This document shows positions 8,413 through 30,167 of a stretch of DNA of 33,990 bases, piece by piece. The stretch's first letter is position 1; each line of letters opens with the position of its first letter. The notes under the pieces were generated by a model. The model saw nothing but the letters and a program-made list of their open reading frames with translations, did no database searches and had not been told where the DNA came from. This stretch comes from a virus (lineage: Duplodnaviria > Heunggongvirae > Uroviricota > Caudoviricetes). The stretch lies in IMG/VR virus record IMGVR_UViG_2737471857_000019; one strand, given 5' to 3'. A program made the position numbers and the translations under genes.

Positions 8413-8779
8413 AGCCGGTCAGGCGTATCTGGGGTGGGATGATGTCCTTTATCGCCAGACGCTGGCCCGCCTGACCGGTAAAACCAGCACCACACGCTGC
8501 AACCTCGATGAACTGCGCATCATCCGGGAATACATGCACGAACAGGGATTTCCGCGCAAGGCCCCCGCCGGTAAAGGTCGCCGCCCTCGTGTTGCAATGA
8601 GCAGAAAATCGGTATTATCCAAAATTGAAGCGTTGCTGGCTGATACCGGTCATTCCTGGGCGTATGCAGAAGGACTGGCATCTCACATGTATAAGCAACA
8701 TGTGATCGAATGGCTGACGGATGAACAGCTTTTTGGGGTGATGGTGGCGCTGGTTAAAGATTCAAGGAGACGTAAATGA
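8384..8779 (+). CDS. GemA-like protein (Mu gp16 / DUF1018 family)
   Basis: MIGAIKAGQAYLGWDDVLYRQTLARLTGKTS...LDELRIIREYMHEQGF matches the GemA/DUF1018 pattern as recalled; ATG 8384 behind GAGG. Confidence 0.55.
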   Translation: MLKKMIGAIKAGQAYLGWDDVLYRQTLARLTGKTSTTRCNLDELRIIREYMHEQGFPRKAPAGKGRRPRVAMSRKSVLSKIEALLADTGHSWAYAEGLASHMYKQHVIEWLTDEQLFGVMVALVKDSRRRK

Positions 8780-9114
8780 AAAAACTGTTATTACTTATTC
8801 TGGCTTTATGTTTTACAGGGATATCCCATGCTTCTGATTCAGAGGAAGATTTGATCAAAAAAACATTACAGGGCGATTATCAGGCACAACGTAATCTGGC
8901 TTATTCATACATGAATGGCTGGGATGATATTTCAAAGGATATCATCAGAGGATGCGCTCTCAGGAAGGTTATTCTCTTGACACAAGCCAAAGCTGACATT
9001 GGCGATTATGGAAATGAAGCCATAGATTGCCGAAAAGTTCATCCAACAGATAACAAGAAAGTATGGGAATATGTCAGAGGATACCTGATGTTGATAAACG
9101 AGAATAAAAAATAA
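8776..9114 (+). CDS. AT-rich secreted small protein with Sel1/TPR-like segment (112 aa); moron candidate
   Basis: Signal peptide MKKLLLLILALCFTGISHA; markedly AT-rich codons compared with flanking genes; last gene before the terminator. Confidence 0.6.
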   Translation: MKKLLLLILALCFTGISHASDSEEDLIKKTLQGDYQAQRNLAYSYMNGWDDISKDIIRGCALRKVILLTQAKADIGDYGNEAIDCRKVHPTDNKKVWEYVRGYLMLINENKK

Positions 9115-9121
9115 TATGAAC

Positions 9122-9150
9122 AAAAACCTTCGCAACTGCGGAGGTTTTTT
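9122..9150 (+). terminator. rho-independent terminator ending the early operon
   Basis: Stem CCTTCGC/GCGGAGG (one G-U pair), loop AACT, followed by TTTTTT; A-run on the 5' side. Confidence 0.7.
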
Positions 9151-9156
9151 ATGGCC

Positions 9157-9184
9157 TGTACAAGCGATCATGTATGGCTATAAT
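9157..9184 (+). promoter_or_regulatory. sigma70-like promoter candidate for the Mor/C-family gene
   Basis: TGTACA, 16 bp spacer, then perfect TATAAT (9179-9184), about 30 bp upstream of ATG 9214. Confidence 0.4.
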
Positions 9185-9213
9185 AACAGTAAGTTACTAC
9201 CGGAGACGCCATC

Positions 9214-9681
9214 ATGCAGACCTTCAGTGAAACAGATCTTCGCGATGCGCAGTCACTACTGCCCGATTCCGTGCAGCAACTGATTAGCGTGATTGGCTTC
9301 CCCGCCCTGACCCGGTTAATTCGTTCTTTTGGTGGTGTGACGTTAAGTGGTAAAACCGGCGCACACGCCGAACGCACCGGCGGTGTCCATGCCCTGTTAC
9401 ATGACGTGCTGACCGAAGACGAAATCAACAGATTGATCCGCTTTCTTGGCGGTGCACCGTTTTACATTCCTCGTTGCGATCATGCGTTACGTGCCCTGCG
9501 TAACACCCGTTTTATGGCTGATTTACAGCAGCATGTAAAAGACGGATGCTCACACCGGCAGGCGCTGGCACTACTCTGTCCCCGTTACGGGATTTCAGAC
9601 CGGTACGCATGGCAACTGATACACCGACGACAAAAACAGACTTCGCTGAAAAGCCCCACCCAGGTGGGGCTTTTTGATTAA
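9214..9681 (+). CDS. Mor/C-family transcriptional activator (middle/late regulator)
   Basis: C-terminal HTH-like SHRQALALLCPRYGISDRYAWQLI and a FYIPR segment as in Mu Mor/C; in the middle position after the early terminator. Confidence 0.55.
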   Translation: MQTFSETDLRDAQSLLPDSVQQLISVIGFPALTRLIRSFGGVTLSGKTGAHAERTGGVHALLHDVLTEDEINRLIRFLGGAPFYIPRCDHALRALRNTRFMADLQQHVKDGCSHRQALALLCPRYGISDRYAWQLIHRRQKQTSLKSPTQVGLFD

Positions 9682-9706
9682 CAGGCCTCAGAAAAAGGAG
9701 ACACTT

Positions 9707-9985
9707 ATGACCAACTATACGGCACCAGGCGAGTATACGGCCTACTCAGAGCAGGCCCGGGATGCTGCCGGACGCCGCTTCGCTTATATGAAAAATCTGG
9801 CCAGCCAGCTAAACCGAATGGCCGAACAACCGGATATGGTTGTTCAGGAAGAAGCGTTGCAGTGTGCCATTGCTGACATCATCGCCAGCGAAAACGAGAT
9901 GCGTGCAGCTATGGAAAAGGCGAACGCCTCTGCTCCGCTTTGTAATAAACCTCTTATTATGCCGGATTCTCTTTCCCGCTTCTGA
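9707..9985 (+). CDS. hypothetical protein (92 aa)
   Basis: ATG 9707 behind AAAAAGGAG; no family recognised. Confidence 0.35.
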   Translation: MTNYTAPGEYTAYSEQARDAAGRRFAYMKNLASQLNRMAEQPDMVVQEEALQCAIADIIASENEMRAAMEKANASAPLCNKPLIMPDSLSRF

Positions 9986-9988
9986 TTT

Positions 9989-10032
9989 AGCACCCCGCCG
10001 CGGCGGGGTGCTGAACTCCCCCAGCAGTACCC
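9989..10032 (+). promoter_or_regulatory. 24 bp perfect palindrome overlapping copy A of the late-block dyad motif
   Basis: AGCACCCCGCCG|CGGCGGGGTGCT at 9989-10012; motif GTGCTGAAC..CAGTACCC at 10008-10032. Confidence 0.5.
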
Positions 10033-10168
10033 ACCACACCAGACCGTTTACCCTCTCCACTCAGACCACAAAGCACCTTAAGGGATAGCGCCCGGCAAAA
10101 GTCATTCTGTGCCTTTGACCGGGTGTTATTTACGGGCCGTCAGTGGCTCAGATTTACAGGAGAAACTC

Positions 10169-10561
10169 ATGTCTGAACCCTTATCAGGCGGCGGAGCTGT
10201 GGCAGTCACCATCGGTGGTGCCAGTGTGTTTGGTCTTCTCACCAATACCGATTTTGGCGTCGTGGTGGGCGCGTTTGCCGGGGCGCTTTTTGTTGTCACG
10301 CAACAGAAAGAAATCCCGGTGTGGCGAATGGCCATCCACCTGCTCGTCGCGTTTGTGGTTGGCGTTCTGGGGGCTGGCGTGGCTGCGTCACTGATGCAGT
10401 GGCTGACCCACTACAACGACAAGCCGCTCGATGCATTGTGTGCGGTCGGTGTCTCGGCGTTATCCATCAAGATACTGACCTTTCTTTATCAACAGGAAAT
10501 TTCATCGCTGTTCGGCCTGTTTTCCAGACTGCGCGGCGGAGGGGGTGGAAATGGAAAGTAG
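10169..10561 (+). CDS. putative holin-like membrane protein (130 aa)
   Basis: Three hydrophobic helices; ATG behind ACAGGAG; immediately upstream of the endolysin. Confidence 0.45.
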   Translation: MSEPLSGGGAVAVTIGGASVFGLLTNTDFGVVVGAFAGALFVVTQQKEIPVWRMAIHLLVAFVVGVLGAGVAASLMQWLTHYNDKPLDALCAVGVSALSIKILTFLYQQEISSLFGLFSRLRGGGGGNGK

Positions 10562-10829
10562 CCTTGCCGGTATCGTGAATGTCTGGCTGTGTCTCGCCAT
10601 TGTGCTGGGGTTGTTTGTGTATCGCCGTCACGGTGCGGCGCATAAACCGATGATTACCTGGCTGGCGTACTGGCTGATGCTCGGCTACATCATCATCCCG
10701 TTCCGCTGGCTGTCAGGTACATACACACACTCCAGCTGGCTGGTTGTGGCGCTGAATCTGGTGTTCTGTGCGCTTATCGTGTGGGCGCACGGGAATTTGT
10801 CAAAAATCCTTTCGTTACTGCGGAGGTGA
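10551..10829 (+). CDS. small membrane protein (holin/antiholin partner candidate)
   Basis: Hydrophobic segments; overlaps the stop of the previous ORF; within the lysis cassette. Confidence 0.4.
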   Translation: MESSLAGIVNVWLCLAIVLGLFVYRRHGAAHKPMITWLAYWLMLGYIIIPFRWLSGTYTHSSWLVVALNLVFCALIVWAHGNLSKILSLLRR

Positions 10830-10831
10830 AT

Positions 10832-11209
10832 ATGTCGGAAAAATTCCGTTTCAGTCAACGTAGCGAGAAAAATCTGGCTGGCGTAAAACCACAACTGGTG
10901 GCGGTTGTACGCCGTGCGCTGGCGTTGTCGGACGTCGATTTTGGTATTACCGAAGGTTTACGCACGAAAGAACGTCAGAAACAACTTGTCGCTGAAGGCA
11001 AGAGCCAGACCATGAACAGCCGTCACCTTACTGGCGATGCTGTTGATGTCGTGGCTTACGTTGGTGGCACCATTTCATGGGACTGGCCGTTATACGAAAA
11101 AATCGCCCGAGCCTTTAAACAGGCTGCCGCAGAGCTGGGTGTCGCCATCGAATGGGGCGGAGACTGGAAAACGCTGAAAGACGGGCCTCATTTCCAGTTA
11201 AAACGCTGA
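10832..11209 (+). CDS. endolysin, peptidase M15 (L-alanyl-D-glutamate peptidase / VanY-like)
   Basis: Zn-ligand motifs SRHLTGDAVDV and DGPHFQL typical of the M15 fold; ATG 10832 behind GGAGGTG. Confidence 0.7.
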   Translation: MSEKFRFSQRSEKNLAGVKPQLVAVVRRALALSDVDFGITEGLRTKERQKQLVAEGKSQTMNSRHLTGDAVDVVAYVGGTISWDWPLYEKIARAFKQAAAELGVAIEWGGDWKTLKDGPHFQLKR

Positions 11210-11222
11210 TGCGGGAGGGATT

Positions 11223-11405
11223 ATGAACAGAAGTCACTGGCCCCACAGAACGCCACGTAAAGCCGTGCGCTGTGTTCTGGCCCTGTTTCTGGTGATGTTG
11301 CTTCCGGTGGGATGCACTGACATTAACAGAGCGGGCCAGCTGTTTGACGCGGCGGCACAGGTCTGCCGGATTATCGACGGTATCCGGCAGTGTTCGCAGA
11401 ACTGA
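11223..11405 (+). CDS. small lipoprotein-like protein, possible o-spanin (60 aa)
   Basis: Hydrophobic leader ending LLPVGC, similar to lambda Rz1 as recalled; follows the endolysin; no i-spanin partner identified. Confidence 0.35.
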   Translation: MNRSHWPHRTPRKAVRCVLALFLVMLLPVGCTDINRAGQLFDAAAQVCRIIDGIRQCSQN

Positions 11406-11425
11406 TTTTTTGAAGGTCTGGCACA

Positions 11426-11632
11426 GTGAGCGTTATCAGATTTACAGAATACACAGGTTCAGGAGGTGCAGGCGCTGTCATGGTGCTCGCTGAACGCATC
11501 ACCCATTTTTACCGTCAGCACGGTACACATGATGGCACTGTCATTGAACTGGATACCGGGAAAAACGTGTTCGTTCTTGAAAATCCCGACGAAGTTCAGC
11601 GCAGGATTGAACAGGCTCAGAAGGACACTTAA
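11426..11632 (+). CDS. hypothetical protein (68 aa; start may be ATG 11480)
   Basis: ORF between the lysis genes and the gp27-like gene. Confidence 0.3.
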   Translation: MSVIRFTEYTGSGGAGAVMVLAERITHFYRQHGTHDGTVIELDTGKNVFVLENPDEVQRRIEQAQKDT

Positions 11633-12132
11633 TGGCGTGGTCACAGGATATCAGGGACAAAGTCCGTAACGGGTACATCTTTGACCAGCTTCCGCTGGAT
11701 ATCGTCGCCATGAAGTACGCCGTGCCGCACGATACCGCGCGGCGCTGGAAAACGCAGGCGATGAAGAACGGTGACGACTGGGACAAGCTGCGGGCCGCTC
11801 ACGCGCTCGCCGGTGACGGGCTGGAAAGTGTCGCCCGCACCGTGCTTATCAGTCTGGTGGTGAAGTGTCAGACGACGCTTGAACGGCTGAACCAGAACCC
11901 GGACATCCCGCCGCAGGAGTCCGTCGAACTGCTGGCGAGTCTGTCTGACAGTCTCAGTAAGGCGGTGGCCAGCAGTAAAAAAATCCTGCCGGAAACCGAC
12001 CGGCTCGCCACGGCACTGGAAGTGGTGCAGCGGCTCGGCGCGTTCATCAAGGAGCGTCACCCGGCACAGTATGCCGCGTTCCTTGAGGTGCTCGAAGGCT
12101 TCGCTAAAGAGCTTGAGGATAATTTCAGTTAA
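11632..12132 (+). CDS. Mu gp27-like protein (DUF1804), putative small terminase / DNA-binding subunit
   Basis: N-terminus MAWSQDIRDKVRNGYIFDQLPLDIVAMKYAVPHDTARRWK fits the DUF1804 pattern as recalled; upstream of the large terminase. Confidence 0.55.
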   Translation: MAWSQDIRDKVRNGYIFDQLPLDIVAMKYAVPHDTARRWKTQAMKNGDDWDKLRAAHALAGDGLESVARTVLISLVVKCQTTLERLNQNPDIPPQESVELLASLSDSLSKAVASSKKILPETDRLATALEVVQRLGAFIKERHPAQYAAFLEVLEGFAKELEDNFS

Positions 12133-12138
12133 CCACAG

Positions 12139-12158
12139 CGGCCCGGTTTTCCGGGCCG
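12139..12158 (+). promoter_or_regulatory. GC-rich hairpin CGGCCCGG-TTTT-CCGGGCCG
   Basis: Perfect 8 bp inverted repeat between the gp27-like gene and the methyltransferase; no downstream U-run. Confidence 0.4.
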
Positions 12159-12178
12159 TCTGATATTCGGGATTTGTA

Positions 12179-12919
12179 ATGCAAAAACAGATTATTGGTA
12201 ACGCAACGTTGTATTGCGGTGATGTTCTTGATGTGCTGCCAGCGTTATCCGAACGTTTTGATGCCGTCATTACCGACCCGCCTTACAGCAGTGGTGGCAC
12301 ACATAAATCAGACCGCAGCATAGCCCCTTCGGACAAGTATGTCGGTCACACCCGGTATGCCGAGTTCACCGGCGATAACCGCGACCAGCGCAGCTGGGCG
12401 TTCTGGTGTTCCATGTGGATTTCTCATGCATTGCACAGGCTGAATCCCGGCGGTTATTTCATGGTGTTCAGTGACTGGCGACAACTACCGGCGCTTACCG
12501 ATGCATTTCAGGCCGGTGGTGTGCTGTGGCGTGGTCTGGTTGTCTGGGATAAAACGCAGGCTTCCCGTGCGCCACACACCGGCTATTTCCGGCATCAGGC
12601 CGAGTATGTGGTCTGGGGCAGCAACGGAAAACTCGACAAATGCCCGCACGGTGGCCCGTTCCCTGGTGTGATTACGCAGCGTGTTGTCCCGTCTGAAAAA
12701 CTGCACATGACCGCAAAGCCAGTTCAGCTGATGGCCGAGCTGGTTAAACCGCTGGCACCGGATGCGCACGTCCTCGATCCGTTTATGGGAAGCGGCACCA
12801 CCGCCATCCCTGTACTTGCCCGTGGCGGACGGTTTACCGGCATTGAAATGACTAACCAGTATTTTGATATCGCCTGCGCACGTATCGAAAAAGCGCAGGC
12901 AGAAGCAGCGCAGGTGTGA
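12179..12919 (+). CDS. orphan DNA methyltransferase, beta-class (N6-adenine or N4-cytosine), 246 aa
   Basis: Motif IV DPPY near the N-terminus and motif I FMGSGTT near the C-terminus; no adjacent restriction endonuclease. Confidence 0.8.
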   Translation: MQKQIIGNATLYCGDVLDVLPALSERFDAVITDPPYSSGGTHKSDRSIAPSDKYVGHTRYAEFTGDNRDQRSWAFWCSMWISHALHRLNPGGYFMVFSDWRQLPALTDAFQAGGVLWRGLVVWDKTQASRAPHTGYFRHQAEYVVWGSNGKLDKCPHGGPFPGVITQRVVPSEKLHMTAKPVQLMAELVKPLAPDAHVLDPFMGSGTTAIPVLARGGRFTGIEMTNQYFDIACARIEKAQAEAAQV

Positions 12920-12920
12920 C

Positions 12921-14561
12921 GTGGCAAAACGTAAACTTTCCATTAAAGAGTTTCAGAGAAGCTTACAGGAGTACATCGCCAACCTCCGCCAGACCATTGA
13001 GGCTGAATGTCTGGGGTTTGATGTTAACCCGCAGGCCACACAGGCCCGCCGGGCGGCAGTCTGCGACCCGGTGACGGGCTACGATTATTTTGTCGAAAAC
13101 TATTTCCCGCACTACGTCCGCAACCCGGCAAAAAGTGAGCTGCATAAATACCTGTTCAGCCGTCTGCCACAGGTTGTGGCAAGCCCGGACCCGGAGAACG
13201 ACGCCATCGCCGCGCCCCGTGGTGAAGCAAAATCCACGCTGGTGACGCAGCTGTTTACCCTGTGGAACATTATCCGGGCCATTAAACATTACCCGGTCAT
13301 CATTATGGACAGTATCGACCAGGCTTATCCGATGCTGGAAGCCATCAAGGCTGAACTGGAATTTAACCCCCGTTTAAAAAACGATTTCCCGGAAGCGTGC
13401 GGACAGGGGCGCGTCTGGCGTATGGGGACTATTGTCACGGCCAACAATATCAAGGTGACCGTCGCCGGTAGTGGTAAAAAACTGCGCGGTCTGCGCCACG
13501 GTCCGTACCGTCCTGACCTGGTTATCCTCGACGACATCGAGAATGACGAGATGGTGCGTAACCCGGAGCAGCGCGACAAGCTGCACGACTGGCTCACTAA
13601 AACCGTGATGCCGCTGGGTGAGGCTGGCGGTAAAACCGATATTATTTATATCGGGACCATCCTGCATTACGACTCCGTGCTGTCGCGCACGCTGAATAAC
13701 CCGATGTGGAAAACAGCCCGCTTTAAGGCTGTTATTCAGTGGCCTGCCAACATGAAGCTGTGGGACGAGTGGGAAGAACTCATCCGCAACAAACAGCCGG
13801 AAGCGGCGGAGGCACTTTACCGGCAGAACGAAGCCGAGATGCTCGCCGGGTCGGTGGTGTCATGGGCGGCGCGTCCCCTGCTGGCACTGATGAAAATCCG
13901 TGTCCGTGACGGTCACGACACCTTTGATTCTGAATACCAGAACGACCCGGTCAGCGGTGAAGATGCGCTGTTTGCGGGCTGCATTAAGTTCTGGGTTAAC
14001 CGTCTTGATGAATGGGTGTTCTACGGCGCTGTTGACCCCAGTCTCGGGAAGAAAAACAAAAACCGCGACCCGTCGGCCATTCTCGTGGGGGGCTTTAACC
14101 GCTTTACCGGCATTCTGGATGTGGTTGAAGCCGATATCCGCCGACGTCTGCCAAATAAACTTATCGAAGACGTGATCAAGTATCAGCGGGAATACCACTG
14201 TCTGTGCTGGTCGTTTGAGTCCGTTCAGTTTCAGGAGTTTCTGCGTACCGTGCTGGTTGAGCGTTCGGCGGCGCTGGGCGTACCGGTTCCGGCGCTGCCG
14301 GTCATCCCTCTGGAGGATAAGGCGCTGCGTATTGAGTCCCTTCAGCCGCATATGGCCAACGGCCTGATTCGCATCAGTCCCGCACATCAGACGCTGATTG
14401 ACCAGCTGCGCCACTACCCCAAAGCCGACCATGATGACGGCCCGGACTGTCTGCACATGCTGTGGACGCTGGCAGTGTCGCGCAGCGCAAAATTTCAGAT
14501 ACACACCCCACGCAGCACCGGGCGTGACCGTGGCGGGCGTTTTGGTTCAGGAGGATGGTAA
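12921..14561 (+). CDS. terminase large subunit (Mu gp28-like)
   Basis: ATPase-like motifs (PRGEAKST, LVILDDIE), about 550 aa, upstream of the portal; track ORF starts at TTG 12864 inside the MTase, GTG 12921 follows the MTase stop. Confidence 0.75.
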   Translation: MAKRKLSIKEFQRSLQEYIANLRQTIEAECLGFDVNPQATQARRAAVCDPVTGYDYFVENYFPHYVRNPAKSELHKYLFSRLPQVVASPDPENDAIAAPRGEAKSTLVTQLFTLWNIIRAIKHYPVIIMDSIDQAYPMLEAIKAELEFNPRLKNDFPEACGQGRVWRMGTIVTANNIKVTVAGSGKKLRGLRHGPYRPDLVILDDIENDEMVRNPEQRDKLHDWLTKTVMPLGEAGGKTDIIYIGTILHYDSVLSRTLNNPMWKTARFKAVIQWPANMKLWDEWEELIRNKQPEAAEALYRQNEAEMLAGSVVSWAARPLLALMKIRVRDGHDTFDSEYQNDPVSGEDALFAGCIKFWVNRLDEWVFYGAVDPSLGKKNKNRDPSAILVGGFNRFTGILDVVEADIRRRLPNKLIEDVIKYQREYHCLCWSFESVQFQEFLRTVLVERSAALGVPVPALPVIPLEDKALRIESLQPHMANGLIRISPAHQTLIDQLRHYPKADHDDGPDCLHMLWTLAVSRSAKFQIHTPRSTGRDRGGRFGSGGW

Positions 14562-14564
14562 TTA

Positions 14565-16160
14565 ATGGCACAGCTTGTTGATATTTACGGACGCCCGCTG
14601 AAACGTGAGGCACTCAAAACCACGCAGTCGGTCAGAGTGGCAGAACGGCTGCGCATTTATCCCGACCACCCGTCCCGTGGTCTGAATATCAGAAAACTGC
14701 CGCGCATTCTGGAAGCTGCCGAACGCGGCTATCTTCCGGCGCAGGCGATGCTGTTTGCGGATATGGAAGAACGTGATGGCCATCTGTTCGCAGAGATGGA
14801 AAAGCGCAAAAAAGCCTTGCTGACGCTGGACTGGTCGGTGGAGCCGCCCCGCAATGCCTCGAAGGCAGAAAAGGAGCTGGCCGCCGCCGTGGATGACTGG
14901 CTGCACGGTATCCCGGACATGGAGGACATCATCCTCAACGGGATGAGTAGTGTCGGTTACGGCTTCAGCTGTCAGGAAATCAGCTGGGCGTTCGTGGATA
15001 AAACGTGGTTACCGGATGCGGTGACGCTGCGCCCGCATAACTGGTTCATTACCCTGCCGGAACACAATGACGAACTCCGCCTTGATGACGGCAACCGTGG
15101 GGAAGATGGTAAGGACGGCTCCGCACTGTGGCCGTTCGGCTGGCTGGTTCATCGTTACAACGCCCGGTCGGGGTTCCTGGGTTCATCCGGCCTGTTCCGC
15201 GTACTGGTCTGGCCGTATCTGTTTAAAAACTTTGCGTTGCGTGATATGGCGGAATTTCTGGAGATTTACGGCCTTCCGGCGCGCATTGCGTACTATGCAC
15301 AGGGCACCAGTGACGAAGACCGGGACAACATTCTCGAAGCCCTGGTTAATCTGGGCCATGAAGCGGTGGCAGCCCTGCCGCAGGGTAACGAAATCGAGTT
15401 CAAGGAAGCCGCGTCCGGTGGGCCGGAGGCGTTCATGTCGATGGTGGAATGGGCGGAGCGTACCACCTCAAAAGTGATTCTGGGCAGTACGCTGACCAGC
15501 CAGGCTGACGGTAAAACCTCCACCAACGCGCTGGGTAATGTGCATAACGAGGTCCGGCACGACATTCTGGCCGCCGATGCGCGCCAGCTGTCCGGCATGT
15601 TCAGCAGCCTGATACAGATGATGGCCAGCCTCAACGGCTGGCAGGATATCCCGCCACGCCGTCTGCCGCGTCTGGTGTTTGATGTGCAGCAGGAAGCCGA
15701 CATTAAGGGGGTGGCGGAAGCCGTCAGTGTGCTGGTCAACAATGTGGGAATGAAGGATATCCCGGTGTCGTGGGTGCGCAAAAAAACCGGTATCCCCACC
15801 CCGAAAGACGGCGAAGAGGTACTGGTTCCGGTGGCACAGCGTCTCCCTGTGCAGGCCGGTCTCAGCCAGCTGCGTGAGCGGATGAATGTTGCCGCACTCA
15901 GTCAGCAGGACAACGGGGAGGACGACCCGGCACAGCGCGCCATCGACCGGGCAGCACTTCCGGCAGAGGCCATCGCGCAGGGAATGAACGAACTGGTGGC
16001 CCCGCTGGTGCAGGCCATACAGGAAGGCCGGAATGCAGACGAGGTCATGAACGTACTGGCGGATGCATGGACGGAGCTGCCGGATGACACACTGCGGCAG
16101 TTGCTGGCGCAGGCATTCTTTGTGGCGGATATCTGGGGGCGACTGAATGCCGACAGCTGA
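14565..16160 (+). CDS. portal protein (Mu gp29 / DUF935-like)
   Basis: 531 aa ORF immediately after the terminase; Mu synteny. Confidence 0.75.
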   Translation: MAQLVDIYGRPLKREALKTTQSVRVAERLRIYPDHPSRGLNIRKLPRILEAAERGYLPAQAMLFADMEERDGHLFAEMEKRKKALLTLDWSVEPPRNASKAEKELAAAVDDWLHGIPDMEDIILNGMSSVGYGFSCQEISWAFVDKTWLPDAVTLRPHNWFITLPEHNDELRLDDGNRGEDGKDGSALWPFGWLVHRYNARSGFLGSSGLFRVLVWPYLFKNFALRDMAEFLEIYGLPARIAYYAQGTSDEDRDNILEALVNLGHEAVAALPQGNEIEFKEAASGGPEAFMSMVEWAERTTSKVILGSTLTSQADGKTSTNALGNVHNEVRHDILAADARQLSGMFSSLIQMMASLNGWQDIPPRRLPRLVFDVQQEADIKGVAEAVSVLVNNVGMKDIPVSWVRKKTGIPTPKDGEEVLVPVAQRLPVQAGLSQLRERMNVAALSQQDNGEDDPAQRAIDRAALPAEAIAQGMNELVAPLVQAIQEGRNADEVMNVLADAWTELPDDTLRQLLAQAFFVADIWGRLNADS

Positions 16161-17313
16161 CGATGTTGACCTGGGGTATGCGTACACACTGAAACCGGAA
16201 GAAGCGATTAAGTATTTCGAAAGTAAGGGATACGTTATCGGCTTCCGCTGGCACGATGTGAAGGATATCGCCAACGCCCGGGCGTTCACGGTGGCGGGCG
16301 TGCTGAAACTGGATGTGCTGAAGGATATCCGTGATGGCCTGACGGCCGCACTGGCTGACGGCGGGACGTTCCGGGAGTTTGCTGCACAACTGGAGCCACT
16401 GCTGGAGAAAAAAGGCTGGCTGGGTAAAAAACTGATTGTGGACGAGGACACCGGCGAACTGCACGGCAGACAGCTGACGCCGCGCCGGTTGCGCACGATA
16501 TTTGATACCAACATTCAGTCGTCCTACAACGCCGGACGTTATCAGCAACAGATGGCGAACGTGGCCGACCGGCCTTATTTTGAGCGCGTGGCGGTGATGG
16601 ACCTTCACACACGCCCGAAACACGCCGCCCTGAACGGCTTTACCGCCCGGGCGGATGACCCGGTCTGGGAGTATTTCTACGCCCCTGACGGGTACGGATG
16701 CCGCTGCCGTATCCGGGCGCGTTCGGCGTCTGATGTGGAGAAATATGGCCTGACGGTGCAGAGCAGCGAGGGGCGACTGGTTGAGGTTGAGCAGGAATAT
16801 GGCCAGCCGGGCCTGACCATCAGAACAATGGGACTGAAGATGCCGGACGGCTCCGTGTATACCGCCGACCCGGGCTTCGGATTTAATCCCGGTCGGGTGG
16901 CATGGCAGCCGGAACTGGAGAAATATGATTACCGCAGTGCCCGCCAGTATGTCACCGGCACTCTGACCGGGCCGGATTTTGCCCGGGGACTGGCGAACGT
17001 CAGCGAACTGGATGCGCGCCAGCGATATCCGCTGGCCATCCGTTCACCGGAACAGGTCGCCGCCACGGGCGCTGCACGGCAGACGGTAAACCTTACGGCT
17101 GACGTTATGAAGCGCCTCAGTGCAACAGACACGCCCCCGGCCGCCGCCGACTATGTGCTGATGCAGCAGACCATCGAACGGGCGGAGCATGTCACGCAGG
17201 ACGGCAACGCGTGGCGGTATGCGTTACAGTCGGGCGACCGCTGGTCAGTGGCGACGGTTGAGGATGACGTGCTGACAGACTGGGTTATGCAGGATACCCC
17301 GGAGGCATCATGA
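16147..17313 (+). CDS. head morphogenesis protein (Mu F / SPP1 gp7 family)
   Basis: 388 aa ORF overlapping the portal stop; Mu synteny. Confidence 0.7.
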   Translation: MPTADDVDLGYAYTLKPEEAIKYFESKGYVIGFRWHDVKDIANARAFTVAGVLKLDVLKDIRDGLTAALADGGTFREFAAQLEPLLEKKGWLGKKLIVDEDTGELHGRQLTPRRLRTIFDTNIQSSYNAGRYQQQMANVADRPYFERVAVMDLHTRPKHAALNGFTARADDPVWEYFYAPDGYGCRCRIRARSASDVEKYGLTVQSSEGRLVEVEQEYGQPGLTIRTMGLKMPDGSVYTADPGFGFNPGRVAWQPELEKYDYRSARQYVTGTLTGPDFARGLANVSELDARQRYPLAIRSPEQVAATGAARQTVNLTADVMKRLSATDTPPAAADYVLMQQTIERAEHVTQDGNAWRYALQSGDRWSVATVEDDVLTDWVMQDTPEAS

Positions 17314-17860
17314 GCAACGGTAAACTGGATATTAAGATTGATTTAAGCGCGTATAACACCACGCTGGGGAAACTGATTCGTTCCGTGAAGGACCGGCGCG
17401 ATCTGATGACGGCACTTGCGGGTTCCATGCTGGATGCGGTTGAGACTAACTTTGAACAACAGGGGCGCCCGAAATGGATGGGCTGGAGTCCGGCTTATGC
17501 GAAACGGCGCGGCCCCGGGCAAATCCTTCAGAAATCCGGGCGACTGGCTGCCAGTATCCGCTCTGCGGTTAACAATAACGAGGCCACGGTCGGGACAAAC
17601 GTCCGTTATGCCCGTATCCACAACGAAGGCGGCGAAATCCGCCATCAGGCACGGACGCAGAACCTGTATTTTAAACAGTACAAAAACGGCAGCGTCAGCA
17701 CCCGCTTTGTGAAAAGCGCAACAGTAATTTTGTGCAGAGCGCAACGGTCGGAGCGTATACGGTCAACATGCCCGCGCGCCCCTTCCTTCAGCTTGTACAG
17801 GACGACATCGACGAGCTGGAGAACACCGCAAACCGCTATTTTGCGCGTGTGATTGACTGA
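17310..17860 (+). CDS. virion morphogenesis protein (Mu G-like), apparently frameshifted by a 23 bp near-tandem duplication
   Basis: Frame of 17310 runs to 17852 with an aberrant tail; the frame shifted by -1/+2 encodes ...NMPARPFLQLVQDDIDELENTANRYFARVID and stops at 17860; duplicated segments 17706-17728 and 17729-17751. Confidence 0.6.
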
Positions 17861-18013
17861 ATGACCACAAACGCGCTGTAATCGTCTGTGGCAACATAAA
17901 CGCCTCACGGATGAGGCATTACAGCACCGCACCCCGTAAATGCTGTCAGAATCGTTTTTAAAAGGGTTTTAAAAACGGTTTTATTTCCCCTTTTATCCTT
18001 TCGCGTTATGGCT

Positions 18014-18040
18014 GGGTGCTGAACACCCTCCACAGTACCC
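18014..18040 (+). promoter_or_regulatory. late-block dyad motif copy B (GGGTG-CTGAA-CACCC then CAGTACCC)
   Basis: Shared with 10005-10032 and 29764-29781; lies 20-47 nt upstream of the protease/scaffold start. Confidence 0.5.
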
Positions 18041-18060
18041 CGTGTTCCCCTTCCGTCATC

Positions 18061-19185
18061 ATGCCGCGTATGAAACTGAACATTGCGGCGTTAAGCCTCG
18101 AAATTACTAAAGCAACCCACAGCGAAATCCAGCTGTTTCCGGCGGGCGAGTTCAGCGCGGTGGATGGTCGCCCACATACCGATGAAGTCGAAAGCGGTAA
18201 ATGGGTGCTGACCGCTGAACTGGCCGCGCAGCTTGTCGCGCAGGTGGCCGCCCGTACCACGCCTTTTGTCATTGATTACGAACATCAGACGCTGCGCGCC
18301 GTAAACAACGGCAAGCCCGCCCCGGCGGCGGGCTGGTTCAGCCAGGTGGAATGGCGAGAAGGCGCGGGCCTGTATGCCACCGGTGTGGAGTGGACGGATA
18401 ACGCGGCGGCCATGATTGCCGCCGGTGAGTACAAATTTATTTCCCCTGTTTTTGCCTACAACAAGCGCGGCGAAGTGCTGGAGCTGTTACATGCTGCGCT
18501 GACCAATACCCCGGCGCTCGACGGTATGGACGCGGTCATGCTGGCTGCGGCCAGCCGTCTGGCGAGTCTGTCAACTGAAACGGAGAACACAACGGTGGAT
18601 GAAGAACTGTTAAACGACTTGCTGTCCAGTCTGCGCTGGATGCTTAACCTCCCGGTTACCTCAACGGCGGAAGATATCAAAAACGAGCTGCAAAAGGTCG
18701 TTGACATGATTTCGAACGGTCAGGGAACGGCGGCGGCATCCGTCAGCCTGCTGGCCCTGCTGAATCAGAAAGACGAGCAAATCGCCAGCCTGTCAGCCAG
18801 TGCCTATGACCCGTCAAAACACATTTCCCTTGCGGCCTTTGAAGAACTTCAGGGGCGTTATGCCGCACTGGCGCAACAGTCCGGTGAGGCCGAAGCCGGG
18901 GCACTGATTCAGGCGGCGCTGTCTGACGGGCGACTGCTTCCGGCGCAGGAAGACTGGGCGAAAGATTACGCCAGCCGCGATATCAACGGCTTTAAGTCCT
19001 GGCTGGATAACGCACCAAAACTTGTTGCACTCAGTCAGACCCAGACCGGCGGTAAACCACCCCAAACGCCGTCGCCTGCCCCGGCGCAGATTAAAACCGG
19101 TGATGACATCGATGTCGATATCGCCATTTGTTCAATGATGGGCGTTGATCCAGAGGATGTCGCCCGTTACGCAGGAGACAAGTAA
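18061..19185 (+). CDS. head protease/scaffold protein (Mu I-like)
   Basis: Position after G and before the major head gene; track start 18016 is a GTG inside the conserved motif, ATG 18061 preferred. Confidence 0.7.
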   Translation: MPRMKLNIAALSLEITKATHSEIQLFPAGEFSAVDGRPHTDEVESGKWVLTAELAAQLVAQVAARTTPFVIDYEHQTLRAVNNGKPAPAAGWFSQVEWREGAGLYATGVEWTDNAAAMIAAGEYKFISPVFAYNKRGEVLELLHAALTNTPALDGMDAVMLAAASRLASLSTETENTTVDEELLNDLLSSLRWMLNLPVTSTAEDIKNELQKVVDMISNGQGTAAASVSLLALLNQKDEQIASLSASAYDPSKHISLAAFEELQGRYAALAQQSGEAEAGALIQAALSDGRLLPAQEDWAKDYASRDINGFKSWLDNAPKLVALSQTQTGGKPPQTPSPAPAQIKTGDDIDVDIAICSMMGVDPEDVARYAGDK

Positions 19186-19581
19186 ATGGATCGCAATACC
19201 CCCTATCGTGACGGCGAGCTGAACCCGGTGCCGGTTGCCGCTGCGACCGAAATTTTTGGCGGCCATATGGTGGCCGTTAACGCATCCGGTTATGCCGTTC
19301 CGGCCAGTGCCACGGCCTCACAGATTACGCTGGGCGTGTCTGATGGCTGGGTGGATAACAGCACCGGCAGCGATGGCGACGCCACCGTTCTGGTGCGTTG
19401 CGGCAAAGCCTTTCTGATGGCGAACAGCACCTCAGACCCGGTCACGCAATCGCAGGTCGGCAAGGTGTGCTACGTGGAAGACAGCGTGACCGTGGCAAAA
19501 ACCGACAACAGCAGCGCCCGCCCTGTCGCCGGGAAAATAATCGGCATCGGTGACGATGGCGTCTGGGTTCATTTCAGTTAA
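19186..19581 (+). CDS. small head-associated protein (Mu Z position; possibly DUF2190-like decoration protein)
   Basis: Gly/Ala/Val-rich 131 aa ORF between the protease/scaffold and major head genes. Confidence 0.4.
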   Translation: MDRNTPYRDGELNPVPVAAATEIFGGHMVAVNASGYAVPASATASQITLGVSDGWVDNSTGSDGDATVLVRCGKAFLMANSTSDPVTQSQVGKVCYVEDSVTVAKTDNSSARPVAGKIIGIGDDGVWVHFS

Positions 19582-19591
19582 GGAGCAAAAC

Positions 19592-20500
19592 GTGATAGTC
19601 AACGTTAAAAACGTCAAACAGATTTTTATCAATCTGAAGGCCACCTTCCAGAAAGCCTTCGACCAGTCACCAACTGACTGGCAGAAGGTGGCAATGGAAG
19701 TGCCATCAAACGGCAAGGAGAACGACTACAGCTGGTTAAGTCGTTTCCCGAAAATGCGCGAGTGGATTGGTGACAAGGTCGTTAAATCACTGGCGGCATT
19801 TAACTACACCATCCGTAACAAGGACTGGGAAGCCACGGTTGAAGTCGATCGTAACGACATCGAGGACGACCAGATTATGGGCTATGCCCTTCAGGCGAAA
19901 GGGGCCGGACAGTCGGCGGCAGAGCTACCAGCAGATATTGTGGCGTCCCTTATCAGTAACGGTTTTACCAATCCCTGTTACGACGGTCAGATGTTCTTTG
20001 ATACCGACCACCTGGTCGCCGGTAAATCGGTGTCCAACAAAGGCACCAAAAAACTCAAAGTTGGCTCGCTTGCCGAGGCGAAAGCCTCCTACGGTGCCGC
20101 CCGTACGGCCATGCGTAGTCTGAAAGATGACGAAGGCGCATCCCTCAAAATTCGCCCGAATCTGCTGGTTGTGCCACCGGCGCTGGAGGATGACGCGAAC
20201 TACCTGATGACCGCCGAGAAGTTCCCGGACGGCACGCCGAACCCGTACCGCAATACCGCCGAAGTGCTGGTGATGCCGGAGCTGGCGTCGGATTCTGCGT
20301 GGTTCCTGTTTGACACCACCAAACCAGTGAAACCGCTGATTTATCAGCTGCGTAAAAAGCCTGTTTTTGTGGAGCAGACGGACTACAACAGCGACAACGT
20401 GTTCAAGCGTAAGAAGTTCCTGTTTGGTGCCGAAGCGCGCTGTAACGGCGGTTACGGCTTCTGGCAGATGGCATTTGGTTCTGATGGTACGACGGAGTAA
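19592..20500 (+). CDS. major head subunit (Mu T-like)
   Basis: GTG 19592 with a strong AGGAG SD 6 nt upstream; about 300 aa; Mu synteny. Confidence 0.75.
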   Translation: MIVNVKNVKQIFINLKATFQKAFDQSPTDWQKVAMEVPSNGKENDYSWLSRFPKMREWIGDKVVKSLAAFNYTIRNKDWEATVEVDRNDIEDDQIMGYALQAKGAGQSAAELPADIVASLISNGFTNPCYDGQMFFDTDHLVAGKSVSNKGTKKLKVGSLAEAKASYGAARTAMRSLKDDEGASLKIRPNLLVVPPALEDDANYLMTAEKFPDGTPNPYRNTAEVLVMPELASDSAWFLFDTTKPVKPLIYQLRKKPVFVEQTDYNSDNVFKRKKFLFGAEARCNGGYGFWQMAFGSDGTTE

Positions 20501-29763: not shown

Positions 29764-29781
29764 GTGCTGAACACCCTCACC
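29764..29781 (+). promoter_or_regulatory. late-block dyad motif copy C (GTGCTGAACACCCTCACC)
   Basis: Starts immediately after the gp45 stop codon, 36 nt upstream of the gp46 ATG. Confidence 0.5.
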
Positions 29782-29816
29782 TGATTCTGACCTGTCCATG
29801 CTGCCAGACTGGCGGC

Positions 29817-30167
29817 ATGGACCAGACGATTTCACCTGCAACCGGCGACTACGAACGCCGCCGGATTTATACACTCCATAACGCGGTTTATCTGCGACTG
29901 GCGACACCGCTTGGCAGTTACTGGGCGGATGCGTCGCTGGGGTCACGCCTGCACGAACTGAAGCGGGAAAAAGACGTTTCCCGTGTTCACAGGCTGGCGG
30001 CGCAGTATGCCAGCCAGGCACTTCAGCCCCTGCTTGATGACGGGCGGGCAAAATCCATTACCGTTGACACGAAAGCGGGCCAGCGAGGCTGGCTGTTGCT
30101 GTTAATCACCGTCACGGATAACGCGGGCACACCGCAGACGTTTGAACACCCTGTGAGGATTATGTAA
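29817..30167 (+). CDS. baseplate protein (Mu gp46-like)
   Basis: 116 aa ORF between the spike and J-like genes. Confidence 0.6.
   Translation: MDQTISPATGDYERRRIYTLHNAVYLRLATPLGSYWADASLGSRLHELKREKDVSRVHRLAAQYASQALQPLLDDGRAKSITVDTKAGQRGWLLLLITVTDNAGTPQTFEHPVRIM

What the first reader, a model, noticed from the sequence alone, without database searches (positions are those of the whole stretch)
18014..18040. Dyad motif GGGTG-CTGAA-CACCC repeated at the head of three late gene blocks
GTGCTGAAC(A/T)CCC occurs three times, always in an intergenic gap: before the lysis cassette (10005-10032), before the protease/scaffold gene (18014-18040) and after the spike gene, before gp46 (29764-29781). Copies A and B share a longer element ending CAGTACCC. 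The core is a near-perfect inverted repeat with a 5 bp spacer, as expected for a dimeric regulator site or a 5' RNA stem-loop. It is the best candidate for the site recognised by the Mor/C-family activator at 9214-9681. In copies B and C it lies only 20-47 nt upstream of the start codon, so it may be transcribed as a conserved 5' hairpin rather than act as a -43 activator site.
Basis: seen in the sequence. Interest (0 to 1): 0.55.

Follow-up and report, generated by a model that had tools for sequence, protein, structure and literature searches.

The report
Late-promoter activator box of Mu-like prophage
The thrice-repeated motif is real and is most likely the DNA site where this Mu-like prophage's own Mor/C-type activator recruits the host RNA polymerase to three late promoters, a known kind of switch with a recognition sequence I found in no paper; two of the promoters appear to make mRNAs that start exactly at the start codon.

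Summary
GTGCTGAAC(A/T)CCC occurs exactly three times (10008, 18016, 29764, all + strand, all intergenic), against 0.01 expected by chance. The window is an E. coli Mu-like prophage.

The conserved unit is a 16-bp imperfect dyad, GCTGA-N6-TC(A/C)NC.

Each copy, and each related site in more than 100 related prophages, has an nAnnnT -10-like hexamer at a fixed distance: 32-33 nt after CTGAAC, 32 in all three window copies. That puts the dyad centre 31 bp before the hexamer, at -43.5, which is the geometry of the phage Mu C-protein box.

The base before CTGAA tracks the type of Mor/C gene the phage carries. It is G in 51 of 51 late sites of phages with a window-type gene. It is A in 56 of 56 late sites of phages with the other type. 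Phages with both genes have an A-type site in front of the second gene.

So this is an activator box at -43.5, not a 5' RNA hairpin.

At copies B and C the ATG lies 6-7 nt after the hexamer and there is no Shine-Dalgarno sequence, which predicts leaderless mRNAs. At copy C a 13-bp palindrome spans the hexamer and the ATG; its function is unexplained.

The parts
9214..9681 (+). Mor/C-family transcription activator gene (155 aa), called 'type II' here; the proposed reader of the motif
   Evidence: Pfam PF08765 Mor, E 1e-6, 29.1 bits against a cutoff of 24.9. A profile of its relatives hits the solved structures of Mu 'Late transcription activator C' (9l0x, 9vw8), E 5e-5. PGAP calls the homologue in L001 'Mor transcription activator family protein'.
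10010..10025 (+).
   Evidence: The homologous position in relatives carries the same box.
10049..10054 (+). -10-like hexamer TACCCT of promoter A, 32 nt after CTGAAC; predicted start near 10059-10063, leaving about 105 nt of leader before the holin gene, which has a Shine-Dalgarno sequence
   Evidence: The transcription start is inferred, not measured.
18018..18033 (+).
18057..18062 (+). -10-like hexamer CATCAT of promoter B, 32 nt after CTGAAC
18070..18072 (+). ATG of the protease gene, 7 nt after the hexamer and with no Shine-Dalgarno sequence; predicted to be at or next to the transcription start (leaderless mRNA)
   Evidence: PGAP start in L001. Weakest anti-SD pairing of 48 CDS, dG +1.2. 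The same geometry occurs in 54 of 64 relatives.
29766..29781 (+).
29805..29810 (+). -10-like hexamer CAGACT of promoter C, 32 nt after CTGAAC
29794..29822 (+). 13-bp-arm palindrome (one G-T pair) centred on the hexamer; it encloses the -10 hexamer and the gp46 ATG (29817). Function unexplained
   Evidence: As RNA -24.9 kcal/mol, z -6.1, 0 of 200 shuffles fold as well. Arms co-vary in relatives.

Best explanation
The three copies are the activator-binding boxes of three late promoters of a Mu-like prophage: one for the lysis operon, one for the protease/scaffold and head operon, and one for the gp46 and baseplate/tail-fibre operon. Each promoter has a weak sigma-70 -10-like hexamer (TACCCT, CATCAT, CAGACT) and no usable -35. 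Instead, a 16-bp imperfect dyad GCTGA-N6-TC(A/C)NC is centred 31 bp before the hexamer, that is at -43.5. The phage's own Mor/C-family protein (9214-9681) is inferred to bind there as a dimer or higher oligomer and recruit host RNA polymerase, as Mu C does at Plys, PI, PP and Pmom. The sequence data show the repeat, the fixed spacing to the hexamer, the conservation at homologous positions, and the co-variation of the box with the activator type. Binding, activator dependence and the transcription start points are inferred. At copies B and C the ATG follows the hexamer by 7 and 6 nt and is preceded by no Shine-Dalgarno sequence, so these two operons are predicted to be transcribed as leaderless mRNAs.
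For: (1) There are 3 exact copies against 0.01 expected; all are on the + strand and intergenic. (2) Homologous positions in relatives from Enterobacterales, Neisseriales, Pseudomonas and others carry (CC)ACTGAACCCCTTCA or nnGCTGAACCC... (3) Spacing is fixed. In the capsid-anchored loci every CTGAACCC(C/T) word in this orientation has nAnnnT 31-33 nt after CTGAAC (32 in most), and nearly all other CTGAAC words there lack it. Across all loci, 136 of 168 unique + strand CTGAAC-plus-C-rich words have the hexamer at +32/33, against 0 of 23 on the - strand and 61 of 728 other - strand words. (4) The dyad centre lies 31 bp before the hexamer in all three copies. The same count is read in Mu Pmom (ATTATGCC|CCAATAAC, then TAAGAT), and Mu C binds a 16-bp imperfect dyad centred at -43.5 (PMC2582627). 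(5) The box co-varies with the activator. Phages with only a window-type ('II') Mor gene have G before CTGAA at 51 of 51 lysis/protease sites. Phages with only the other type ('I') have A at 56 of 56. Phages with both genes have an A-type box within 200 nt upstream of the type II gene in 17 of 18 loci and G-type boxes at the late sites in 29 of 30. (6) Positions A and B are the positions of Mu Plys and PI, and the activator gene sits just before the lysis genes, as C does in Mu. (7) No complete sigma-70 promoter is found at or just after any of the three copies; the only call nearby ends about 56 bp upstream of copy C, inside the gp45-like gene. (8) The protein is a Mor/C family member.
Against: There is no experimental binding, footprint or transcript-start data for this phage or any close relative. 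The box does not resemble Mu's C box in sequence (TTAT-N6-ATAA), and the protein shares only a short 62%-identical stretch with Mu C. The right half-site in the window is weak (3 to 4 of 5 matches to the left half). The hexamers are poor -10 elements. The co-variation counts are per contig and many contigs are closely related, so the number of independent events is much smaller than the counts. The third promoter is not at the position of Mu PP: it precedes gp46, not gp44.
Confidence: 0.8

Rival explanations
1. The motif acts in RNA, as a conserved 5' stem-loop (GGGUG-CUGAA-CACCC, of the lambda boxB kind) that is bound by a regulator or controls translation of the downstream gene.
For: Copy B can form a 5-bp stem with a 5-nt loop, and copies B and C are close to start codons.
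Against: Stems pair 4/5 and 3/5 in A and C. Folding is no better than shuffles (z -0.66, -1.33, +0.06). The upstream arm is replaced by cca, ctg, gcg or ccg in relatives with no compensating change downstream. The conserved hexamer and ATG geometry puts the motif upstream of the predicted start. No Rfam family matches.
Confidence: 0.03
2. It is a DNA site for some other factor: another phage DNA-binding protein inherited together with the Mor gene, or an alternative sigma factor that uses GAAC as a -35 element.
For: Co-variation with the Mor type cannot by itself exclude a tightly linked second gene. GAAC resembles the -35 element of ECF sigma factors (my own knowledge).
Against: The spacing from GAAC to the hexamer is 32 bp, not 16-17. 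No sigma gene is annotated in the near-identical prophage L001. The small ORF between the Mor gene and site A in the window is absent in relatives, where site A follows the Mor gene by about 60 nt. The dyad at -43.5 is the Mor/C signature.
Confidence: 0.08
3. It is a chance repeat or a selfish or structural intergenic repeat (REP-like) with no role in transcription.
For: It is short and occurs only in intergenic DNA.
Against: 0.01 copies are expected by chance. The element keeps the same three positions relative to lysis, protease and gp46 genes in distantly related hosts. Its orientation is strict and its spacing to a -10-like hexamer is fixed.
Confidence: 0.02

Closest known systems
Phage Mu C-dependent late promoters (Plys, PI, PP, Pmom) and the Mor-dependent middle promoter Pm
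   Same: The activator belongs to the same protein family. The promoter has a -10 hexamer without a -35. A 16-bp imperfect dyad overlaps the -35 region and is centred at -43.5 (31 bp from dyad centre to hexamer in both). Promoters stand in front of the lysis genes and in front of gene I. The activator gene lies just upstream of the lysis genes. Some relatives have a two-step Mor-to-C-like cascade.
   Different: The recognition sequence is unrelated (GCTGA-N6-TCNNC or ACTGAA-N4-TTCAGT, against TTAT-N6-ATAA). The window has only one Mor/C gene, and it is preceded by a sigma-70-like promoter (TGTACA-16-TATAAT). The third promoter precedes gp46, not P/gp44. There is no mom gene or mom promoter. 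The gene I and gp46 starts lie 6-7 nt after the hexamer (predicted leaderless), whereas Mu gene I starts about 25-30 nt after its predicted start and has an SD-like AGCAGGA.
Leaderless mRNAs of temperate phages and transposons (lambda cI from PRM, Tn1721 tetR; from my own knowledge)
   Same: The AUG is predicted at the 5' end of the transcript and there is no Shine-Dalgarno sequence.
   Different: The known cases are low-level regulatory genes. Here the first cistrons of structural late operons would be leaderless. The start is predicted from geometry only.
P2/186/P4 late promoters activated by Ogr/B/Delta (TGT-N12-ACA at about -55; from my own knowledge)
   Same: A phage-encoded activator site replaces the -35 at several late operons of a temperate myovirus.
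   Different: The protein family is different (a zinc-finger protein), as are the site and its position.

Membership tests
Mor/C-dependent promoter (phage Mu paradigm) | The phage encodes a Mor/C-family activator | tested here: met
   PF08765, E 1e-6, above the gathering score. The profile hits PDB entries for Mu C, 9l0x and 9vw8, E 5e-5.
Mor/C-dependent promoter (phage Mu paradigm) | A recognisable -10 hexamer but no typical -35 hexamer | tested here: met
   nAnnnT hexamers at fixed spacing. The sigma-70 scan finds no full promoter at or just after any of the three copies; its one call near copy C ends about 56 bp upstream of the motif.
Mor/C-dependent promoter (phage Mu paradigm) | A 16-bp imperfect dyad centred at -43.5 | tested here: met
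   The dyad centre is 31 bp before the hexamer in A, B and C and in relatives, the same count as in Mu Pmom. The dyad is perfect in L053 (ACTGAAGGGCTTCAGT). The numbering assumes the hexamer is the -10.
Mor/C-dependent promoter (phage Mu paradigm) | Sites stand at the heads of the late operons (lys, I, P, mom) | tested here: inconclusive
   The lys and I positions match. The third site precedes gp46 rather than gp44/P. There is no mom gene.
Mor/C-dependent promoter (phage Mu paradigm) | The box specificity matches the activator (protein and site co-vary) | tested here: met
   51 of 51, 56 of 56, 17 of 18 and 29 of 30. The counts are not phylogenetically independent.
Mor/C-dependent promoter (phage Mu paradigm) | The activator binds the box and transcription depends on it | not testable with these tools
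   Needs gel shift or footprinting and reporter or start-site mapping.
Leaderless mRNA | No Shine-Dalgarno sequence before the start codon | tested here: met
   The protease gene and gp46 have anti-SD pairing of +1.2 and -1.5 kcal/mol, among the three weakest of 48 CDS in L001.
Leaderless mRNA | The transcript 5' end coincides with the A of the AUG | not testable with these tools
   Only predicted. The ATG is 6-7 nt after the hexamer in the window and in 54 of 64 relatives, against 8.9% of all ATG triplets.
RNA hairpin regulator site (boxB-like) | The stem is conserved or compensated across copies and relatives | tested here: not met

The most novel reading that the evidence does not exclude
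A large family of Mu-like prophages, found from Enterobacterales to Neisseriales, Pseudomonas, Burkholderia and further, may transcribe the protease/scaffold operon and the gp46 baseplate operon as leaderless mRNAs from activator-dependent promoters. In that reading, a co-varying palindrome that encloses both the -10 hexamer (A-11 and T-7 form the closing pair) and the start codon is a functional device. It could, for example, silence the SD-less AUG on read-through transcripts so that only promoter-initiated leaderless mRNA is translated, or it could act as a DNA structure that helps promoter opening.
Probability: 0.5. Interest if true: 0.65.

Novelty: new member of a known kind. Interest (0 to 1): 0.45.

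Why it matters
It gives a sequence rule for finding late promoters in a very common but little-studied group of Mu-like prophages: the box, 32 bp, nAnnnT, and at two operons the ATG. It also shows two natural activator/box specificities that differ mainly at the base before CTGAA. These coexist in some phages as a Mor-to-C-like cascade and could serve as an orthogonal regulator pair. Finally, it makes a clear and cheap prediction, leaderless late structural mRNAs, which would be unusual for highly expressed phage genes in E. coli.

Tried and rejected
- Megablast of 9000-19300 against cultured phages found nothing. No cultured phage has a close 'type II' activator; the best hits are Klebsiella phage ST405-OXA48phi1.1 at 41% and SuMu at 33%.
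- Rfam gave no match anywhere in the window.
- I first looked for a -10 about 24 bp after TGAA, by analogy with Mu's ATAA. This failed. The correct register is 31 bp from the centre of the downstream-shifted dyad.
- A brute-force search for repeated words in all loci was too noisy, and one script timed out, although its partial output revealed the variant boxes.
- To decide whether the palindrome works in RNA or DNA, I compared + and - strand folding and counted G-T against A-C mismatches. A broad candidate set showed no asymmetry (119 against 123 G-U pairs). The curated set shows G-T above A-C (10 against 3 in pairs 8-11), but with selection bias and related sequences. The result is inconclusive.
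- A MAFFT/RNAalifold alignment of the palindromes misplaced gaps and gave only a partial structure, so I anchored on the hexamer instead.
- I looked for amino-acid positions that separate the two activator types. All that segregate perfectly lie at residues 42-70, the presumed dimerisation half, and none lies in the helix-turn-helix. No specificity determinant can be named.
- Literature searches for the motif strings and for leaderless or late promoters in Mu-like phages found nothing relevant.

Full report
**Observation.** GTGCTGAACWCCC has exactly three matches in the window, at 10008, 18016 and 29764. All are on the + strand, and 0.01 matches are expected from dinucleotide-preserving shuffles. 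With two mismatches allowed, four more appear, all on the - strand. The three exact copies lie in gaps between genes:
- Copy A lies after ORF 9674-9985 and about 150 nt before the holin gene.
- Copy B lies between the G-like virion morphogenesis gene and the Mu gene-I-like protease gene.
- Copy C lies directly after the TAA stop of the gp45-like spike gene, 40 nt before the gp46 ATG.

Copies A and B also share CAGTACCC downstream.

**Context.** The window is a Mu-like prophage of E. coli. The B region is found at 90-100% identity in 55 of 5426 complete E. coli genomes. The gene order matches Mu: transposase A and B, a GemA-like gene, a Mor/C gene, lysis genes, terminase, portal, F, G, I, T, tail genes, and gp43 to gp48.

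ORF 9214-9681 is a Mor/C family protein. Pfam PF08765 matches it at E 1e-6. A profile of its relatives hits the solved structures of Mu late activator C at E 5e-5. It is nevertheless distant from Mu C: only a 21-residue stretch around FYIP aligns well. It lies just before the lysis genes, as C does in Mu.

**Comparative evidence.** I fetched 80 loci around capsid homologues from one genome per species and 80 IMG/VR contigs around homologues of the activator.

In about 25 of the capsid-anchored loci, the same three positions carry a related word. The hosts include Trabulsiella, Kosakonia, Pectobacterium, Serratia, Morganella, Xenorhabdus, Neisseriales, Pseudomonas and Halothiobacillus. The positions are before the lysis genes, before the protease gene and before gp46. 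Most loci carry (CC)ACTGAACCCCTTCA. Morganella and Xenorhabdus carry GTG- or CTG-CTGAACCC...

Variants show the real symmetry:
- Bryobacterales loci have the perfect palindrome ACTGAAGGGCTTCAGT.
- Other loci have ACTGAAGTCCCTCAGG.
- The window-type consensus is gTGCTGAACcCCctCAaC, that is GCTGA-N6-TCAAC.

In the window the 16-bp units are:
- GCTGAACTCCCCCAGC (10010-10025)
- GCTGAACACCCTCCAC (18018-18033)
- GCTGAACACCCTCACC (29766-29781)

**The sites are promoters.** In the capsid-anchored loci every CTGAACCC(C/T) word in this orientation is followed by an nAnnnT hexamer 31-33 nt after CTGAAC, 32 nt in most cases. The hexamers resemble TAtaCT, for example AATACT, TATTCT, TACACT and CATTCT. Nearly all other CTGAAC words in those loci lack it.

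Across all loci, 136 of 168 unique + strand CTGAAC-plus-C-rich words have the hexamer at +32/33. On the - strand, 0 of 23 such words have it, and 61 of 728 other - strand CTGAAC words do.

In the window the hexamers are TACCCT (10049), CATCAT (18057) and CAGACT (29805), each exactly 32 nt after CTGAAC. The sigma-70 scan finds no complete promoter at or just after any of the three copies. Its one call nearby ends about 56 bp upstream of copy C, inside the gp45-like gene.

The centre of the 16-bp dyad lies 31 bp before the hexamer. With the hexamer at -12 to -7, the centre is at -43.5. I read the same count in Mu Pmom, where ATTATGCC|CCAATAAC is followed 31 bp from the dyad centre by TAAGAT. Mu C is reported to bind a 16-bp imperfect dyad centred at -43.5 that overlaps the -35 region, at promoters with a -10 but no -35 (PMC2582627).

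**Link to the activator.** The Mor/C homologues fall into two groups. Type II is window-like: 44-99% identical to the window protein. Type I is like the L006 protein: about 40% identical to the window protein and 64-72% identical to L006.

| Mor/C genes in the contig | Site examined | Base before CTGAA | Count |
|---|---|---|---|
| Type II only | lysis and protease sites | G (gtg, ctg, gcg, ccg...) | 51 of 51 |
| Type I only | lysis and protease sites | A (cca) | 56 of 56 |
| Type I then type II | box within 200 nt upstream of the type II gene | A (cca) | 17 of 18 |
| Type I then type II | lysis and protease sites | G | 29 of 30 |

The two-gene phages behave like the Mu Mor-to-C cascade.

Within type II, the right half-site also changes from lineage to lineage. 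Examples are CCCGCCAACT in Morganella, CCTCTCAGCC in other contigs, and ACCCTCCACAG in E. coli.

The counts are per contig and many contigs are related, so there are far fewer independent events than the numbers suggest. The pattern is still consistent across several lineages. It also holds at the protease site, 8 kb away from the activator gene in the head module. The gp46 site, 20 kb away, is outside the IMG/VR contigs; in the four type II prophages where it could be read (window, L034, L041, L043) it is also G-type.

The small ORF between the activator gene and copy A in the window is not conserved in relatives, so it cannot be the universal partner.

**Mechanism.** I conclude, with confidence about 0.8, that the motif is the promoter-distal half-site plus spacer of the binding site of the phage's C-like activator. 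The activator would turn on three late promoters by recruiting host RNA polymerase.

Shown by sequence: the repeat, the fixed spacing, the positional conservation and the co-variation. Inferred: binding, dependence on the activator and the start points.

**Leaderless prediction.** At B and C the ATG follows the hexamer by 7 and 6 nt (CATCATgccgcgtATG; CAGACTggcggcATG), always as cATG. The A of the start codon is therefore at +2 (B) or +1 (C), at or next to the expected start.

Neither gene has a Shine-Dalgarno sequence. In the near-identical prophage L001 their anti-SD pairing is +1.2 and -1.5 kcal/mol, among the three weakest of 48 CDS. The holin gene downstream of copy A has a normal SD and a leader of about 105 nt.

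The same hexamer-to-ATG geometry is present at the protease gene in 54 of 64 capsid-anchored loci. That includes loci with quite different upstream boxes, such as the Burkholderia locus L064. Only 8.9% of all ATG triplets show it. In Mu itself gene I starts about 25-30 nt after the predicted PI start and has an SD-like sequence.

**Palindrome.** At copy C a 13-bp-arm palindrome (29794-29822, one G-T pair) is centred on the fourth base of the hexamer. The conserved A and T of nAnnnT form the closing pair, and the 3' arm contains the ATG (-24.9 kcal/mol as RNA, z -6.1).

Relatives have such palindromes at the protease and gp46 sites, and the arms co-vary: GCTGCC/GGCGGC, GCCCCGC/GCGGGGC, AGCCCCG/CGGGGCT, TACCGATA/TATCGGTA. 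Pairing is nearly complete over pairs 2-7, against much lower pairing when the partner is slid by one base.

Palindromes are absent at the lysis sites and are degenerate at copy B of the E. coli clade (z -0.49). Whether the structure acts in DNA or in read-through RNA could not be decided.

**Comparison with what is known, and novelty.** This is a Mor/C-type late promoter set, which is a known kind of system. Its recognition sequence is unrelated to Mu's, and I found it described in no paper. No cultured phage in the searched collection carries a close type II activator.

I file it as a new member of a known kind. The predicted leaderless late operons and the palindrome over the -10 and the ATG are the parts that go beyond the Mu paradigm, and they need experiments.

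Noticed in passing
window 29794-29822; also L003 about 20280-20310, L007 about 8430-8460 and 20370-20400, L025 about 8450-8480, L064 about 8465-8495 and many others: A long palindrome is centred on the -10-like hexamer and includes the start codon of the protease and gp46 genes. Its arms co-vary between phages. It is absent at lysis promoters and degenerate at window copy B. Its function is unexplained; candidates are an RNA structure that masks the start codon on read-through transcripts, or a DNA structure.
   Followed up: partly
L104 6818-8400, L110 8920-10510, L123 8925-10520 and about 15 other IMG/VR loci: Relatives carry two Mor/C paralogues in tandem. A ccaCTGAACCCCTTCAAC box plus AATACT hexamer lies just upstream of the second gene, and a terminator-like hairpin follows. 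This looks like a Mu-style Mor-to-C cascade. The window has only the second type.
   Followed up: partly
window 9123-9184: Upstream of the activator gene there is a hairpin followed by a T-run (AACCTTCGC-AACT-GCGGAGGTTTTTT), then a sigma-70-like promoter TGTACA-16-TATAAT (9157-9184). The promoter was called by the scan. The terminator was seen by eye only and was not called by the tool. This suggests the early transcript ends here and the activator gene has its own promoter.
   Followed up: partly
window 17953-17977: An AT-rich palindrome, CGTTTTTAAAA-GGG-TTTTAAAAACG, lies in the gap between the G-like and I-like genes. It is conserved as TTTTTAAAA-N-TTTAAAAA in 15 of 74 relatives. It sits in the same intergenic gap where the Mu record annotates the gyrase cut site (L002 17879), so it is a candidate strong gyrase site.
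   Followed up: partly
window 9991-10010: A GC-rich hairpin, CACCCCGCCGCGGCGGGGTG, lies directly after the stop of ORF 9674-9985. Its 3' arm supplies the GGGGTG that precedes copy A. No T-run follows it. It may mark or stabilise the end of the middle transcript.
   Followed up: no
alignment of 83 unique Mor/C homologues; window protein residues 42-70: All positions that separate type I from type II activators lie in the N-terminal half (GGVTLSG against GGTTFP(I/F)G, and residues 58, 66-67 and 70). None lies in the C-terminal helix-turn-helix. This might reflect avoidance of heterodimers where both paralogues coexist.
   Followed up: no
L001 28708-31323 (relative, not the window): In E. coli 08-00022 the otherwise near-identical prophage has an IS66-family element (ISCro1) inserted in the tape-measure gene, so that copy is probably defective.
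   Followed up: no
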